From the human T2T-CHM13v2.0 reference genome, Homo sapiens: 64,000 bases of DNA. The notes under the pieces were generated by a model. The model was not told the DNA's origin and made no database searches. It was given only the letters and a program-made list of their open reading frames with translations. The DNA is taken from NCBI RefSeq assembly GCF_009914755.1, contig NC_060928.1; one strand, 5' to 3'. The translations under genes and the position numbers were made by a program. How positions within the stretch are numbered: the stretch's first letter is position 1; each line of letters starts with the position of its first letter. Shown in pieces: positions 3,879 through 42,976 of this stretch.

Positions 3879-5429
3879 TGAAGTTCCATCTCCTTTGTAA
3901 AATAGTTCTTATAAACACAGATCTTTTCAAGTCTTAAAATTCCATAACTCCTATTTTCTGTGCCTCACAATGGAAGATTTACCATATATTGTCTTACGTT
4001 GTTCTCTGATGTTTCATTGTCTTTATTTTTTCATTTCAACTATCTACATAAAAAAAAGCCTTCTCTAGGGTCTGTATCTCATGCTTTTGTGTCTCCTCTG
4101 GTGCAGGTACTTGAAACAAGGGTGTTGTACAATACACATTTGTTGACCCTTGATACTCCATCATTTCATTAAAAGCAACCAACAGCCCAGTTTTCACTAG
4201 GGCCCATCTTGGTCACCAGAAACCGTTAACCAAAAGTGAATATGGTTTACTTGTAAAAACTATTTCACCATATTTCTGCATATCCTGGTCTGATGAATTT
4301 GATTATCAATTTATTCTAATTGTTAACATGGACTTAAAAAACTGCCAGAATATTAGCTAAAAACAAATTTGTAACAAGGTTTTTTAAAGTTTATCTTTAA
4401 AGATTTTAGCAAGATATTTTCAGGCCTAATGTAACTAGAAGTTACTAACTACCTTTAAAAGCTTCATTTAAAGTTCCTTTTAAGGAGTAAGCTCTCATCA
4501 TTTTTACATTGTGTGCTTCTTATCTTCATTGTCACCTGAGGCAGATGTGAGCCTAGAGCTCTTATCCATTTCAAATGCTGCCAAGGTATTGAATTAGAAT
4601 TTGGAACAAAACCAAAAATGATTTCCTCTTACAGATCTCACCGGCAGGCCTGAAACCAGCCTGGGCTGGGGAAAACAAAGAGAAGCTACTTTTCAGGACA
4701 AGTTAATACCCACCTAAATGCCTTGCCATTATTAGAGCATAAGAACATACCCTATCTTGCTAGATCCAGAATGGCTTTTCACTCTTAGCGCTTATCTGTG
4801 AATTCAGTTTGACATCTAGCAGCCAGCATCATCTGAGCCCTTAGAAAACACTTGTGTCCTTTTGCATTTACTGGCAGTCGAAATCAGCTGCTTCAGACTC
4901 TCAGGTCTGAACTTCAAAGAAGAAAAGGAGGTTCAGAGTTTTTTTCTGTCATCTTATGCACATTCCTGGCATCTGCCTTCACCTTGCTTTGTATTTTACC
5001 TGTCTAGTTTGTCCATCTACTGGGCAGGGACCTGGTCCAGTTCAGTGTTTTGCTTTGCAAGTACTTACCCAGTGTTTAATGTTATTATTATCATCCCAAG
5101 TATTAGTAGTTGTAATACTGTTTTCTTTGTTTTTTTTTTTTATTTAATGAAACCACAGTGGTATAACTGTAGATTCTTGTTTCATCCTACAATCAGGCTA
5201 CACAGTTAACATTAGAATTTAAATAACTGAATTGTAAGTGGACATTTTTTTGCTTTTAAAAATTTTTCTTTGAGCATTTCTGGAATTAAACAATTCAAAA
5301 TCTTTTAACTTTTGGAGAGTTTACTGACTAAATTAAAATTACATAATTTTTCTCTGGCTCTAGGGTCTTCATAAAGTTTTACTTCTTTAGGAAAATGGTG
5401 AACCCAGAGAATTCACTTTAACAAGTTCA

Positions 5430-6240
5430 ATTCAACAGCTGTTCACCAAGCTTCCACTCTTCTAGTTATATGGTCCAATCAGAGGGAAGGAGATAAGGGA
5501 AACTCACAAATAACAATCATTTGAGAGAAGCTATGGTAAGTGCCACCAGGAGGGTAGGGGGCAGACTGGTTTGTCTACAGTGTGTACAACAGTAGCATTT
5601 ATTATACTCTCTGCAAATACTAATTAGAAGAATGAATGGTGGGGTATAAACAGAGAATTGGGAAAAGAATTCTTGGGAGAGACAGACTTTTCAATGGACC
5701 TTATATATTTCCGTAAATAGAGATTGTAGTAAGAGCAGGGTGAGACATTGAAAGATCATGCTAGGCTAGAGAAAAGTAAAAAAGCAACCATGTTGTTGAG
5801 AAAGTATAAATAAGAGTTTGTATGAGGTAGAGTGAGTTGATACATTAAATTAGCAGAAAGGGCATGGGAAGAAGATGTGTGGAGCTAGAGTGGCAAAATA
5901 ATTGGGCCATTTTGTGGAAGGTCTATGAAAGTTTTTAGTACGGAGATAGCATGGTTAGAACTTTATGTTAGGGAAATTAACCTGTCAGTCATTCTTTGAG
6001 TGGGAATCAGTTAGGAGATGATTTCAGTAGACCAGTGCTGGAAAAAGGATTTAAGCTAGGATTGCGACTGTGGAAGTGGAAAGGAGGGGATAATGCAAGA
6101 AATGTTATAGGAATGGTGTTGTCTAGACTCAATAACTGACTGAATGTTAGGGGAGGAAGAGAAAGGAGTCCAGGATGCCTCAGGAGGTAGCAACCAGGAA
6201 GATCATAGGAAACCATTCATGGGCACAGGTGCTGGGTTTA
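5430..6240. mobile_element. Degenerate L2 fragments
   Basis: Purine-rich tracts such as gggaggaagagaaaggagtccaggatgcctcagg resemble L2; approximate boundaries. Confidence 0.45.
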
Positions 6241-20832: not shown

Positions 20833-21221
<389 letters not shown>

Positions 21222-29874: not shown

Positions 29875-29951
29875 GTAGCCCAGCCATGACCCATAGGAAT
29901 CTGACTTCCTCCAGTCTGAATGACATTTCTGATAAACCGGAGAAGGACCAG
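29875..29951 (+). CDS. SLC4A4: SLC4A4 (NBCe1) internal coding exon (exon 7 in NBCe1-B numbering as recalled), (G)[25 protein letters not shown]
   Basis: Acceptor ttgtgtttttccag| and donor CAG|gtaagc. 77 nt, phase 1 to phase 0. Translation matches the recalled NBCe1 sequence ...[42 protein letters not shown]... Confidence 0.96.
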
Positions 29952-30302: not shown

Positions 30303-30600
30303 GCCTGGCACAGTGGCTCATGCCTGTAATCACAGCACTTTGGGAGGCTGAGGTGGGCGGATCACTTGAGGCCAGGAGTTGAAGACCAGTCTGGCCAACA
30401 TGACAAAACCCGTCTCTACTAAAACCACAAAAATTAGCCAGGCACGGTGGCACAGGGCTGTAATCCCAGCTACTCCACAGGCTGAAGCATGAGAATCGCT
30501 TGAACCCGAGAGGCAGAGGTTGCATTGCACTGAGATCGCACCACTGTGCTCCAACCTCAGTGACAGAGCGAGACTTTGTCTCAAAAAAAAAAAAAAAAAA
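30303..30600 (+). mobile_element. AluS (Sx/Sz-like), sense orientation
   Basis: gcctggcacagtggctcatgcctgtaatc...gagactttgtctc followed by A18; near-TSD aagaaatac/aagaaatgc. Confidence 0.94.
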
Positions 30601-37960: not shown

Positions 37961-39571
37961 TCTAGATCTTTAAACACTTTATTGAATCCGCCTCCACTGC
38001 TAAGATACTATTTGCTGGTCAGATTTGAGTTTATTCTTTATGTTTCACTCCACTAAAAGCTTAGTGATTCAAAATGAAAAGAATCTCAGTATCTAGCATT
38101 TGCCTCCCAGCTCACTTTGGGGGCTTTTTGTCAGAAGCTTAAAGTATAGAGATTAAAACTGAGTTTATTTTCCTGATCTAATTGGACGTCCGAGCTGGCT
38201 AATCACTTGTATTCTGAAGTAAGGAGGTGAAAAGTGCAGTGGCCATATACTTGCTTTGACTGAAGATGTTGCTGTTCCCAGCTCTGAGAGGGCTTTTCAG
38301 GCTCTGTGAGAATTTCCTTGGCAACCAAAAAATGGCTTCATCTCAAGAGCCCTTCTTGGTGGTCAGCATTTGGAACAAAAAGAAAAATTGCAAAAAGAGT
38401 TGGACAAGTGTTCCCTTTGAATATTATTCAACACATTTGCAGCTTGGATCTACATCTCCTTCCTTTCCTTCCCCCAACCCCCAAGAGAATTTTAAATGCA
38501 TATATGCCAGACTGTAAAGTTAGTTAAATAAAAAGTTTTATACCTTATATGGAGTGCTTTATTAGGAGCTTTGAAGGAGTGTTGTCAACTGAAATGGCTA
38601 ATAAAAAGATGAGCCAACACTTTTTTTTTTTAACATGTTGGGGCATATTTGCAGATTCTACTGCTCCCCAATTTCCCTCTTAATAGGGAATCTCTGCAGA
38701 GTAAGTTTATGAAGAGGTCACACCATGGGAGGAAGTTTTTCCTGTTCTTCTTTAGAAAGAGAAGAGCTCCCCACTGTTTCTAGCTCACTTGTCTGATTGA
38801 TCCAGTGGCTGGTTGATTTATGTGTCTCAGCAGAATCTCATGACCTTATCAGTCACCAGCAGAGCTTCCTGGTTTCTCCATGTGTTACCCACCAATGGGC
38901 TGGTTTTACTTCCTAGAACTGAACTGAAATGAAAACAATGATTCTTTTTTTTTTTTTTTTTGCCACCATGTTAAAAGGACAGCAGTAATGTTTTCTACAA
39001 TCTGAAAGCCAGTGGTTAATCATGCCAAGATGACATTCCTGACTAATCAGTGTTCCATGCATACACATATAAGAGGGTAGGAAGTAACTGAGTCATTGCA
39101 TAGGGAGTGATTGTAAGCTTTGAACTTCAAAATTAGCTGTACTCTTCATCATTCAGTAGCTGTATCTGATAGTATTGAGTCTATTGCTACGTAAGCAATA
39201 ATTAACAACTAGCATAGATTGGACATCTAATTACAACTAATGCTTTGGGGTTGGTACTGTCAACTCTATTTGACATATTGGCAAACTGGAGGCATGAGGA
39301 GATTAAGTAATTTCCCTAAAGTTAAATAGCATCTAAATGATAGAGCTGCATCCTGGTCCTAGTGCCTGTGCTCTTAGTGGATATAATGAGTTCTGCCTAG
39401 TTGGATTAGGGTCTTTTTAGGTCCCTGAAAGCCACTGTGGAACAGACACGTATTCAATCGAAGTTTCTGGCTTTTGGTTTGTCTTTGAGGCAAACATCAT
39501 GCTGAATAGGCTAATTACCAGAATTACTATTAAAAATGAATAATAAAAAATTTTTAAGGGTCTTATGGTGA

Positions 39572-40524
39572 CTGGATGGATGTTTCTGCTGCCACAATGA
39601 TTAAAATACTCAATGTTATGTGCTGATACTCTGGATGTCATTGGTGAAGGTCAGTGAAAAAAGACTGATATAATAAAAAAGTATAATCTATGATCTCAGA
39701 TTGTGAGTTTATATCTTAGCTGATTATTCACACCGAATAAACTGTGGTGCTGACAGTGAAGTGCAGCTGGGGTTCAGTGAAAGACACAACTGTGTGGGCC
39801 AAAGCCATCAATCAAAGAGGAACCAGGGACTTTAGAAGCATCTTTCCATTCTAGAGAACAAAAATAACAGAATAAAAGAGTTTTAACCAAATAAAACATT
39901 CTTCCTTGGATAAAAGGTTAGGTAAGAAATGGGAGAAATAAATTGGAATGCAACTATCTAGAGTTTAGCAATACAAGTAAAAGACTTAGTTCATCTAATA
40001 AATGGAAATTATTGTGGCTTTTAGAATTATTTGAAATAATAGCCAAACTTTCCAAATTTGAGGAAATACAACATTTCAATGTTTTTTTTTTTTGTAGTTA
40101 GTGTGACATGTAGAATTAGTGAAAGTAGATTAGTTAGTTGACTTGTCCACAGACCACAATGAATAGAGAGTTACAACACACTTAATTTACAGATCTTCAC
40201 TTGTGCTTTGCTAAACCCCATGGTTCTTTGACTTTCAGGCTGTTAAATATTCATTCTCACTATAGATAGGGTCAACTCTAGTTCATTTAGTCTGATAAAT
40301 GCACATCATTATGACCTTAAAATTTTGTTCTGGTAAGAGGAAAAAGTGATTATTATTGAACTTTTTTATTAATAAGCTAAGATATAAACTTACAATCTGA
40401 GATCATAGATTATACTTTTTTATTATATCAGTCTTTTTTCACTGACCTTCACCAATGACATCCAGAGTATCAGCACATAACATTGAGTATTTTAATCACT
40501 GTGGCAGCAGAAACATCCATCCAG
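39572..40524. repeat. 150-bp inverted repeat (arms 39572-39721 and 40375-40524, 148/150 identical, 653-bp spacer)
   Basis: Manual reverse-complement alignment: the only differences are 39597 A vs 40499 C and 39705 G vs 40391 T. Confidence 0.97.
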
Positions 40525-41117
40525 GATCATAGGAATAGCTTTGAAGACTTAAGTAAGCATAGTAAACCTTAACTCTTCTGAACTTCAGTTTTCTGATTCA
40601 TAATAGAGATATTATACTTCAGTCTGAACTGCTTTTTCTACTGAGTTGTTTTGTGAAAAGGAAAATACTTAATACACTTCAAAATGTTATATAAATCTTC
40701 ATCATCATTGCCATTTTCATTATTTAAATGGGCTACTGCTTTTTTATTTTTGGTTTTGCTTTGCAGTAAGATTTGGTGGGATGAAAGTCCATTTCATTTA
40801 GGTATCATTCCTTATCTTTTAAATTTGCATTGTTAATTTGGCTCTTTGGAGTTCATGCTCTTAACTTCTGCTCTATACTGCTCTATCCACACTGTAAAGA
40901 AATGTATGTCCGATTGTCATTTCATGAATCTTATTGAATGCACATTACTCTTGTACCCAAATTTCTCTTTTTCTCTCTACTTTTCCAAGTCTTACCTTTA
41001 CTTCAAAACTTGTCAAGTGTTACTTTTTCTTTATATCCATCCTTGAATATTCCAGCTTATGTTAACTACTCCTGTTTTGAATTTCCAATACCATCTAGTA
41101 CTTATTATTTTCATCAC

Positions 41118-41468
41118 TGATGTGGTTTGGCTGTGTCCCCACCCAAATCTCAACTTGAATTGTATCTCCCAGAATTCCCACATGTTATGGGAGTGACCCA
41201 GGGGCAGGTAATTGAATCATGGGGGCCAGTTTTTCCTTTTCTATTCTCATGATAGTGAATAAGTCTCATGAGATCTATGGGCTTATCTGGTGTTTCTGCT
41301 TTTGCTTCTTGCTCATTTTCTTTTGCCACCACCATGTAAGAAGTGCCTTTCACCTCCCTCCATGATTCTGGGCCTCCCAGGCATGTGGAACTGTAAGTTC
41401 AATTAAATCTCATTTTCTTCCTAGTCTTGGGTATGTCTTTATCAGCAGCATGAAAACTAACTAATATA
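41118..41468 (+). mobile_element. THE1C-like 5' LTR
   Basis: tgatgtggtttggctgtgtccccacccaaatctcaacttgaattgtatctcccagaattccc...ctaatata. Confidence 0.9.
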
Positions 41469-42976
41469 GTAAACTGGTACCAGAAGTGGGGTGTTGCTGA
41501 AAAAATACCCAAAAATGTGGAAGCAACTTTGGAACTGGGTAACAGGCAGAGGCTGGAACAGTTTGGAGGTCTCAGAAGAAGATAGGAAAATGTGGGAAAG
41601 TGTGGAACCTCTAGAGACTTGTTGAATGGCATTGACAAAAATGCTGATACTGATATGAACAATAAGGTTCAGGCTGAGGTGGTCTCAGATGGAGATGTGT
41701 AACTTGTTGGGAACTGGAACAAAGGTGACTCTTGTTATGTTTTAGCAAAGAGACTGGAGGCATTCTGCCCCTGCCCTAGAGATACGTGAAACTTTGAACT
41801 TGAGAGAGGTGATTTAAGGTATCTGGCAGAAGAAATTTCTAAGCAGCAAAGCATTCAAAAGGTGACTTGGGTGCTGTTAAAAGCATTCTGTTTTAGAAGG
41901 GAAACAGAGCATAAAAGTTCCGAAAATTTGCAGCCTGACAATGCAGTAGAAAAGAAAAACCCATGTTTTGAGGAGAAATTCAAGCCAGCTGCAGAACTTT
42001 GCATGAGTAGCAAGGAGCCTAATGTTATTCCCCAAGACCATGGGAAAATGTCTTCAGGCCATGTCAGAGACCTTCATGAAAGCCCCTCCCATCACAGGCC
42101 CAGAGGCCCAGTAGGAAAAAGTGGTTTCGTGGGCCACACCCGGGGTCCCCGTGCTGTATGCAGCCTAGGGATTTGGTGCCCTGTGTCCCAGATGCTCCAG
42201 CTGTGGCTGAAAGGGGCCAATGTAGAGCTCAGGCTGTGGCTTCAGAGGGTGGAAGCCTCAAGCCTTGGCAGCTTCCACATGGTGTTGAGCCTGCGAGTGC
42301 ACAGAAGTCAAGAATTGAGGTTTGGGAACCTCTGCCTAGATTTCAGAAGATGTATGGAAATGCCTGGATGCCCAGGCAAAAGTTTGCTGCAGGGGTGGGG
42401 CCCTTATGGAGAACCTCTGTTAGGTCAGTGCAGAAGGGAAATGAGGGGTTGGATCCCCCACACTGAGTCCCTACTGAAGCACTGCCTACCATAGCTGTGA
42501 GAAGAGGGCTACTGTCCTCCAGACCCCAGAATGGTAGATCCACTCACAGCTTGCACTGTGTGCCTGGAAAAGCTGAAGACACTCAATGCCAGCCCATGAA
42601 GGCAGCCAGGAGGGAGAATGTACTCTGCAAAGCCACAGGGGTGGAGCTGCCCAAGACCATGGGAAGCCACCTTTTGCATCAGTGTGAAAACTGGAGTCAG
42701 AGGAGATCATTTTGGAGCTTTAAAATTTGACACCCCCACTGGATTTTGGACTTGCATTGACCCTGTAACCCCTTTGTTTTGGCCAATTTCTCCCATTTGG
42801 AACAGCTGTATTTACCCAATACCTGTACTCCCATTGTATCTAGGAAGTAACTAGCTTGCTTTTGATTTTACAGGCTCACAGGCAAAAGGGACTTGCCTTG
42901 TCTCAGGTGAGACTTTGGACTGTGGACTTTTGGGTTAATGCTGAAATGAGTTAAGACTTTGAGGGACTGTTGGGAA
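41469..42976 (+). mobile_element. THE1-int internal region, lacking the 3' LTR
   Basis: gtaaactggtaccagaagtgggg...gagttaagactttgagggactgttgggaa; ORFs at 41862-42854 are MaLR-internal noise. Confidence 0.88.

What the first reader, a model, noticed from the sequence alone, without database searches (positions are those of the whole stretch)
39572..40524. Near-perfect 150-bp inverted repeat of apparently unique sequence: intronic dsRNA with a single A-C mismatch
Seen: 39572-39721 is the reverse complement of 40375-40524 at 148/150 positions, with a 653-nt spacer; the arms do not resemble any transposon I recognise. In the SLC4A4 sense pre-mRNA one difference becomes a G-U wobble (G39705/U40391) and the other an A-C mismatch (A39597/C40499), so 149/150 positions pair. 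Known: long duplexes are ADAR substrates, with A opposite C preferred, and potential Dicer/PKR/MDA5 ligands. This duplex is much more perfect than typical inverted Alu pairs. Inference: a non-Alu hyper-editing or hairpin-RNA locus.
Basis: partly seen in the sequence, partly recalled or inferred. Interest (0 to 1): 0.75.

Follow-up and report, generated by a model that had tools for sequence, protein, structure and literature searches.

The report
Small unique inverted duplication in SLC4A4 intron
A 155-base stretch of an SLC4A4 intron is present a second time, flipped, 643 bases downstream, so the intron RNA can fold into a long near-perfect double helix; this is a real but fairly ordinary by-product of DNA copying errors, and its editing by ADAR enzymes is plausible but untested.

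Summary

The arm occurs exactly twice in the whole genome held. The edges are sharp, there is no target-site duplication above chance, and there is no Rfam match. It is therefore not a transposon's terminal repeats and not an Alu pair.

Most likely it is a local inverted duplication made by template switching or break repair. Arm divergence dates it to roughly 10-20 My ago, with a wide interval.

As RNA the arms pair completely, giving about -261 kcal/mol on either strand. Editing, small RNAs and immune sensing could not be tested.

It is not exceptional. In 314 kb of the same gene I found a second single-copy inverted repeat (269 bp, 97.8%), whose right arm sits inside a TA/TG microsatellite. 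Published genome-wide catalogues list thousands of non-repeat dsRNA and hyper-editing loci.

Verdict: real, a new member of a known kind, of modest interest.

The parts
39572..39726 (.). Left arm of the inverted repeat (155 bp; GC 33%, no CpG)
   Evidence: one of only two genomic copies
39727..40369 (.). 643-bp spacer (the loop in RNA). It is unique sequence, GC 33%, with a T12 run at about 40082-40093, and has no homology to the arms.
   Evidence: no tandem repeat
40370..40524 (.). Right arm, the reverse complement of the left arm at 152/155 positions
39597..39597 (+). On the antisense strand this pair becomes a G:U wobble.
   Evidence: sequence context TGCCACA[A]TGATTAA
39705..39705 (+). G opposite T40391: a G:U wobble in sense RNA, and a C:A mismatch in antisense RNA
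39722..39722 (+). G opposite A40374: a G:A mismatch 4 nt from the inner edge of the arms. It is either a later substitution or an untidy junction followed by 'TAAT' microhomology.

Best explanation
This is a lineage-specific local inverted duplication of single-copy intronic DNA. A stretch of about 150-155 bp was copied in reverse complement to a site about 650 bp away, by a replication template switch or by fold-back/templated repair of a break. It is not the ends of a transposon and not a pair of repeat-family insertions.

The three arm differences are ordinary point substitutions accumulated since the event, which puts it roughly 10-20 million years ago with a wide error.

As a consequence (inferred, not shown), every SLC4A4 pre-mRNA carries a stem of about 155 bp with a 643-nt loop, deep in an intron. 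In the nucleus that stem is a good substrate for promiscuous A-to-I editing by ADAR1 p110 or ADAR2, and it is then degraded with the intron. I expect no effect on splicing or on the protein, and I read the element as a neutral by-product rather than a selected device.
For: Shown:
- Two copies only in the genome, in a unique neighbourhood.
- Arm edges are sharp. Outer and inner 200-bp flanks align no better than shuffles: 153/300 and 28/300 shuffles reach the observed score.
- The best flanking direct repeat is 4 nt even with +/-6 nt slack, which is typical of random positions (mode 3-4 in 2000 trials).
- There are no tandem repeats at the edges and no Rfam family at E<=1.
- Differences are 2 transitions and 1 transversion, with no CpG in the arms. 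K = 0.0196 gives 9.8-19.6 My at 1.0-0.5e-9 per site per year; the Poisson interval spans 2-57 My.
- Predicted RNA: the arms pair fully in the MFE and centroid folds of 39540-40556. Duplex energy is -260.9 kcal/mol (sense) and -260.6 kcal/mol (antisense).

By analogy:
- A second single-copy inverted repeat in the same gene (L024:3407-3675 / 5287-5555, 263/269, 1611-bp spacer) has its right arm flanked on both sides by TA/TG microsatellite (TRF 5178-5287 and 5542-5704). That arm is therefore an insertion copied from upstream into a break-prone tract.
- Template switching is documented to create nearby perfect inverted repeats in great-ape genomes (PMC7954356, passages seen).

Neutrality:
- Of 7 transitions in the two repeats, 3 give G:U wobbles and 4 give A:C mismatches in sense RNA. 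Chance expects about one half, so there is no sign that pairing is protected.
Against: - No outgroup genome could be consulted. The ancestral state, which arm is the copy, and whether the spacer was inverted are all unknown for this repeat.
- Junction microhomology is weak: only 'TAAT' beyond a mismatch at the inner edge, and none at the outer edge.
- The tract is longer than any event in the great-ape template-switch set (median 12 nt, maximum 128 nt), and the template lies further away than that method scans.
- Both single-copy inverted repeats found are about 98% identical, while the 6 low-copy direct repeats in the same 314 kb are 76-92%. All 2 rank above all 6, which has a 1/28 chance. 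This could mean arm-to-arm gene conversion, in which case the age estimate is only a minimum.
- A very old repeat family diverged beyond about 80% identity could escape the genome search. I could not run RepeatMasker or Dfam, and the sequence held carries no masking.
- Editing and dsRNA formation in cells were not tested.
Confidence: 0.65

Rival explanations
1. This is an older inverted repeat whose arms are kept nearly identical by arm-to-arm gene conversion or repeated template switching, or by selection for a hairpin RNA. On this reading 98% identity does not date the event.
For: In 314 kb of the locus, the 2 single-copy inverted pairs are 98.1% and 97.8% identical, while the 6 low-copy direct pairs are 76-92% and no single-copy inverted pair of intermediate identity is seen. 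Homogenisation of inverted-repeat arms by template switching is described in yeast (PMC8604942, abstract only, in the listing).
Against: The sample is only 2 versus 6. The substitutions show no bias towards pair-preserving changes: 3 of 7 transitions are wobbles. Arms of 155 bp are short for efficient homologous conversion (recalled, not tested). The flanks show no trace of an older, larger repeat.
Confidence: 0.12
2. This is a micro-inversion of about 0.8 kb with a duplicated breakpoint. Staggered breaks or two template switches inverted arm plus spacer and left the arm at both ends, so the spacer is inverted relative to the ancestor.
For: The layout arm-spacer-inverted arm, with sharp edges and no target-site duplication, is what such an event leaves. 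Micro-inversions flanked by inverted repeats are documented between human and chimpanzee (PMC8755829, passages seen).
Against: Those documented inversions are 17-33 nt with flanking repeats of 3-75 nt, which is far smaller. Nothing in the human sequence alone gives the orientation of the spacer. The second repeat is better read as a simple insertion into a microsatellite.
Confidence: 0.12
3. These are the terminal inverted repeats of a DNA transposon, MITE or foldback element of 953 bp.
For: The long terminal inverted repeats with an unrelated interior superficially fit.
Against: It is a single locus in the genome. No target-site duplication exceeds chance. Arm identity of 98% is far above the 73-89% of the repeat-family pairs around it. 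That no DNA transposon has been active in the human lineage for tens of millions of years is recalled knowledge, not tested here.
Confidence: 0.04
4. This is an assembly artefact, such as a chimeric fold-back read.
For: None was found. The question could not be checked against reads or another assembly.
Against: The arms differ at 3 sites with a transition-rich pattern. They are separated by 643 bp of unique sequence rather than joined head to head. A second repeat of the same kind, with 6 differences of which 5 are transitions, lies 128 kb away.
Confidence: 0.02

Closest known systems
Template-switch mutations / templated inverted insertions (four-point model; great-ape survey PMC7954356)
   Same: A stretch is copied in reverse complement from nearby sequence, which creates a near-perfect inverted repeat with sharp edges and no target-site duplication. 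Such events are known to generate hairpin-forming sequence.
   Different: This tract is 150-155 nt (269 nt in the second example), against a median of 12 nt and a maximum of 128 nt in that survey. The template is about 0.8 kb away. Junction microhomology is not clear.
Non-repetitive intramolecular dsRNAs and hyper-edited regions outside repeats (PMC11838218; PMC4365171; PMC7006430)
   Same: It is intronic, its arms lie outside known repeat families, and it has a loop of a few hundred nucleotides. The edited non-repetitive class has a median length of 144 bp and a median loop of 509 nt.
   Different: It is much tighter than the class median: 98% paired with a 124-bp uninterrupted run, against a median of 87.5% paired and 30 contiguous bp. 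Its editing status is unknown. It is below the >300-bp cut-off used for the 'long, nearly perfect' lists.
Inverted Alu pairs in introns
   Same: Both are an intramolecular duplex in pre-mRNA and an expected ADAR substrate.
   Different: The arms here are single-copy, 155 bp and 98% identical. The multi-copy inverted pairs in the same gene (65-66 of them) are 73-89% identical.
Large palindromes with arm-to-arm gene conversion (such as those of the sex chromosomes; recalled)
   Same: Both have near-identical inverted arms around a unique spacer.
   Different: This one is two to three orders of magnitude smaller. Conversion is not shown, and the arms contain no genes.

Membership tests
DNA transposon / MITE (terminal inverted repeats) | Target-site duplication directly flanking the element | tested here: not met
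   The best direct repeat is 4 nt, and only with boundaries shifted by +6/-1. Random positions give 3-4 nt as the mode (2000 trials).
DNA transposon / MITE (terminal inverted repeats) | Several related copies in the genome | tested here: not met
   The arm has 2 of 2 matches, both at this locus. The 2.1-kb region has no other match over the arms. Copies below about 80% identity could be missed.
DNA transposon / MITE (terminal inverted repeats) | Match to a curated repeat consensus (Dfam/Repbase) | not testable with these tools
   No repeat library is on hand, and the sequence files carry no soft-masking.
Inverted pair of interspersed repeats (such as Alu) | Each arm belongs to a multi-copy family | tested here: not met
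   Each arm has 1 hit (its partner) in 314 kb, against 10-91 hits for the arms of the other 66 pairs.
Template-switch / templated inverted insertion | Reverse-complement copy of nearby sequence with sharp boundaries | tested here: met
Template-switch / templated inverted insertion | Microhomology at the switch points | tested here: inconclusive
   The inner edge has 'TAAT' beyond a mismatch in AT-rich sequence; the outer edge has none.
Template-switch / templated inverted insertion | Ancestral allele lacking one arm | not testable with these tools
   No primate genomes are held. For the second repeat, polarity is inferred from its insertion into a microsatellite.
ADAR hyper-editing locus | Long intramolecular duplex within one transcript | tested here: met
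   By prediction only: the MFE and centroid folds pair the whole arm, the duplex energy is -260.9 kcal/mol, and both arms lie in one SLC4A4 intron according to the annotation supplied with the finding.
ADAR hyper-editing locus | Clusters of A-to-G mismatches in RNA-seq on both arms | not testable with these tools
   No expression data are held. 'SLC4A4' is not in the held supplement text of PMC4365171 or PMC7006430. The supplement of PMC11838218 was unreadable.
Known structured RNA / miRNA family | Match to an Rfam covariance model | tested here: not met
   0 matches at E<=1 in 38500-41600, both strands.
MDA5-type 'long, nearly perfect' dsRNA (as defined in PMC11838218 and PMC7006430) | More than 300 bp and more than 96% paired | tested here: not met
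   Pairing is 98% but the length is only 155 bp.

The most novel reading that the evidence does not exclude
The two single-copy, roughly 98% identical inverted repeats in SLC4A4 are not young. They are small palindromes held near-identical by continuing arm-to-arm conversion (hairpin-templated repair), possibly because the intronic hairpin RNA is used, for example as an ADAR sink or timer or as a source of small RNAs in kidney or astrocytes. That would make them a miniature, autosomal, non-genic counterpart of sex-chromosome palindromes, and would imply a class of concertedly evolving micro-palindromes in introns.
Probability: 0.07. Interest if true: 0.6.

Novelty: new member of a known kind. 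Interest (0 to 1): 0.27.

Why it matters
If the reading is right, the locus is a clean natural example of how replication or repair errors create long, almost perfect hairpins from unique sequence. The tract is longer than in the published great-ape template-switch sets.

It would also be a convenient non-Alu, uniquely mappable test substrate for ADAR editing, including one ready-made A:C mismatch, in a gene highly expressed in kidney, pancreas and astrocytes.

It does not by itself open a new question. Genome-wide catalogues of such structures and of non-repeat hyper-editing already exist. Nothing here suggests an effect on SLC4A4 function.

Tried and rejected
- **Rfam:** nothing at E<=1.
- **Extension of the repeat into the flanks:** no score above shuffles. 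By eye, a 9-nt partial complement (TCTTATGGT / ATCATAGGA) just outside the arms pairs in the fold, but it is not significant.
- **Target-site duplications:** tested for the whole unit and for each arm alone; none above chance.
- **Tandem repeats at the arm edges:** none, unlike the second repeat.
- **Literature on this locus:** 'SLC4A4' with 'inverted repeat' and 'editing' (8 papers), with 'A-to-I' and 'intron' (6 papers) and with 'ADAR' (57 papers, 12 listed). By title and abstract none concerns this intron.
- **Supplements:** 'SLC4A4' is absent from the held supplement text of PMC7006430 and PMC4365171. These files may be truncated or may lack the large site tables. The supplement of PMC11838218 held no readable text.
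- **Soft-masking as a proxy for RepeatMasker:** the files are all upper case.
- **Which arm is the copy:** no signal in the human sequence alone.

Full report
**1. The observation**

The inverted repeat is real and at the stated place. The repeat finder gives arms 39572-39726 and 40370-40524, 155 nt, 98% complementary, 643 nt apart.

A direct comparison finds three differences:
- 39597 A / 40499 C
- 39705 G / 40391 T
- 39722 G / 40374 A

The longest unbroken run is 124 pairs. On the antisense strand the first two swap roles.

Chance is excluded. A 60-nt piece of the arm matches twice at <=3 mismatches, against none in 100 shuffles. The only other inverted pair >=80 nt within 10 kb in the 64-kb window is 79% complementary.

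**2. What it is not**

- **Not a repeat family.** The arm has two matches in the 3.1-Gb genome held, both at this locus. The surrounding 2.1 kb has only four other matches, each 45-55 nt and none over the arms.
- **No larger or older repeat around it.** The 200 bp outside and inside the arms align no better than shuffled sequence: 153/300 and 28/300 shuffles reach the observed score.
- **No target-site duplication.** Tested for the 953-bp unit and for each arm alone. The best is 4 nt with shifted boundaries, and random positions give 3-4 nt as the mode.
- **No tandem repeat at the edges**.
- **No Rfam family** at E<=1 on either strand of 38500-41600.

I could not run a repeat library, and the files carry no masking. 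A very old, strongly diverged family is therefore not formally excluded. It would also not explain 98% arm identity.

**3. Context from the same gene**

I then ran self-BLAST on it.
- There are 67-68 inverted pairs of >=60 bp within 5 kb.
- 65-66 of these involve arms with 10-91 hits in the sample, meaning interspersed repeats, mostly Alu-sized. They are 73-89% identical.
- Exactly two are single-copy. One is the finding. The other ('IR2') is at chr4:74877407-74877675 / 74879287-74879555, which is L024:3407-3675 / 5287-5555. It has 269-bp arms, 263/269 identical, with a 1611-bp spacer holding an Alu-like element and an (AT)n run.

IR2's arm is also present only twice in the genome, and its flanks likewise show no further homology. 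Its right arm is embedded in a TA/TG microsatellite that continues on both sides (TRF 5178-5287 and 5542-5704). Such dinucleotides make up 0.87 and 0.79 of the flanks there, against 0.40 and 0.29 beside the left arm. That arm is therefore an insertion copied from 1.6 kb upstream into a break-prone tract, which gives polarity and a plausible trigger for one event of this kind. For the finding itself no such signature exists.

**4. Origin and age**

The best reading is a local inverted duplication by template switching, or by fold-back/templated repair.

Template switches are documented to create nearby perfect inverted repeats in great-ape genomes. The tracts captured there have a median of 12 nt and a maximum of 128 nt (PMC7954356, passages), so this event and IR2 are long examples.

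Junction microhomology is unconvincing: 'TAAT' beyond a mismatch at the inner edge and none at the outer edge.

A variant I cannot separate without an outgroup is a micro-inversion of about 0.8 kb with a duplicated breakpoint. Documented human-chimpanzee micro-inversions are much smaller (PMC8755829, passages).

The differences are 2 transitions and 1 transversion here, and 5 and 1 in IR2. This looks like ordinary substitution rather than sequencing error. With no CpG in the arms, K = 0.0196 gives about 10-20 My at 1.0-0.5e-9 per site per year, with a Poisson interval of 2-57 My.

One caveat applies to the date. Both single-copy inverted pairs are about 98% identical, whereas the six low-copy direct pairs in the same sample are 76-92%. 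With 2 against 6 this is only suggestive (1/28). It would fit arm-to-arm conversion or rapid loss of inverted repeats, and then the date is only a minimum.

**5. How it most likely works as RNA**

This part is inferred. Folded as RNA, 39540-40556 pairs the whole arms in both the MFE (-411.8 kcal/mol) and the centroid structure. The two arms alone give -260.9 kcal/mol (sense) and -260.6 kcal/mol (antisense).

Both arms lie in one intron. The nearest listed exon of the selected transcript ends at 29951, and no downstream exon lies in the window. The duplex should therefore exist only in nuclear pre-mRNA or the excised intron.

Established knowledge (recalled) is that long near-perfect duplexes are edited promiscuously by ADARs, and that A opposite C is favoured. 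The A at 39597 has A on its 5' side and U on its 3' side, which is acceptable but not the best context.

The duplex is long enough for PKR-type binding, but shorter than the >300 bp that PMC11838218 takes as favouring MDA5. Cytoplasmic exposure would need intron retention or lariat leakage.

There is no sign of selection on pairing. Of 7 transitions in the two repeats, 3 are wobbles and 4 are A:C mismatches in sense RNA. I therefore read the element as a neutral by-product.

**6. Comparison with what is known**

The class is well described.
- dsRNAscan predicts 5,134,754 human dsRNAs. About 497,000 are non-repetitive and 4,597 of those are edited (median 144 bp, 87.5% paired, loop 509 nt). In all, 31,017 are >96% paired (PMC11838218, sections 6-10 and Table 1).
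- Barak et al. describe near-perfect inverted duplicated sequences in pre-mRNAs and list 197 human cases >300 bp and >96% identical (PMC7006430, passages).
- Porath et al. found 3,539 hyper-edited regions outside repeats, of which 1,174 have an antisense match within 10 kb (PMC4365171, section 12).

This locus is tighter than the class median but below the 'long' cut-offs. I found no paper that mentions it and no entry in the supplement text that I could read (unreadable). Whether it is catalogued or edited therefore remains open.

**7. Verdict**

- It is a new member of a known kind, of modest interest.
- The most novel reading still open is concerted evolution or function of such micro-palindromes. 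I put that at about 7%.

Noticed in passing
L024:3407-3675 and L024:5287-5555 (chr4:74877407-74877675 / 74879287-74879555, outside the window, same gene): A second single-copy near-perfect inverted repeat: 269-bp arms, 263/269 identical, 1611-bp spacer, and only these two copies in the genome. Its right arm is inserted inside a TA/TG microsatellite, so it is the derived copy.
   Followed up: yes
314 kb of the SLC4A4 locus (L003-L028 plus the window): The single-copy inverted pairs within 5 kb (2) are both about 98% identical, while the low-copy direct pairs (6) are 76-92%. No single-copy inverted pair of intermediate identity was seen. The sample is too small to interpret, but the pattern hints at conversion or rapid loss of inverted repeats.
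   Followed up: partly
window 21050-21147 and 30303-30400: A 98-nt, 79% complementary inverted pair lies 9.2 kb apart. Both arms fall in stretches that the supplied annotation marks as masked repeats, and they bracket the coding exon 29875-29951. This arrangement can favour back-splicing or exon skipping.
   Followed up: no
window 40082-40093: A run of twelve T in the spacer. No retroposed element or target-site duplication was identified around it.
   Followed up: no
L024:4704-5065: The spacer of the second repeat holds an (AT)n array (TRF 4704-4783) directly followed by an Alu-like element on the minus strand. I named it from the look of the sequence, not from a library.
   Followed up: no
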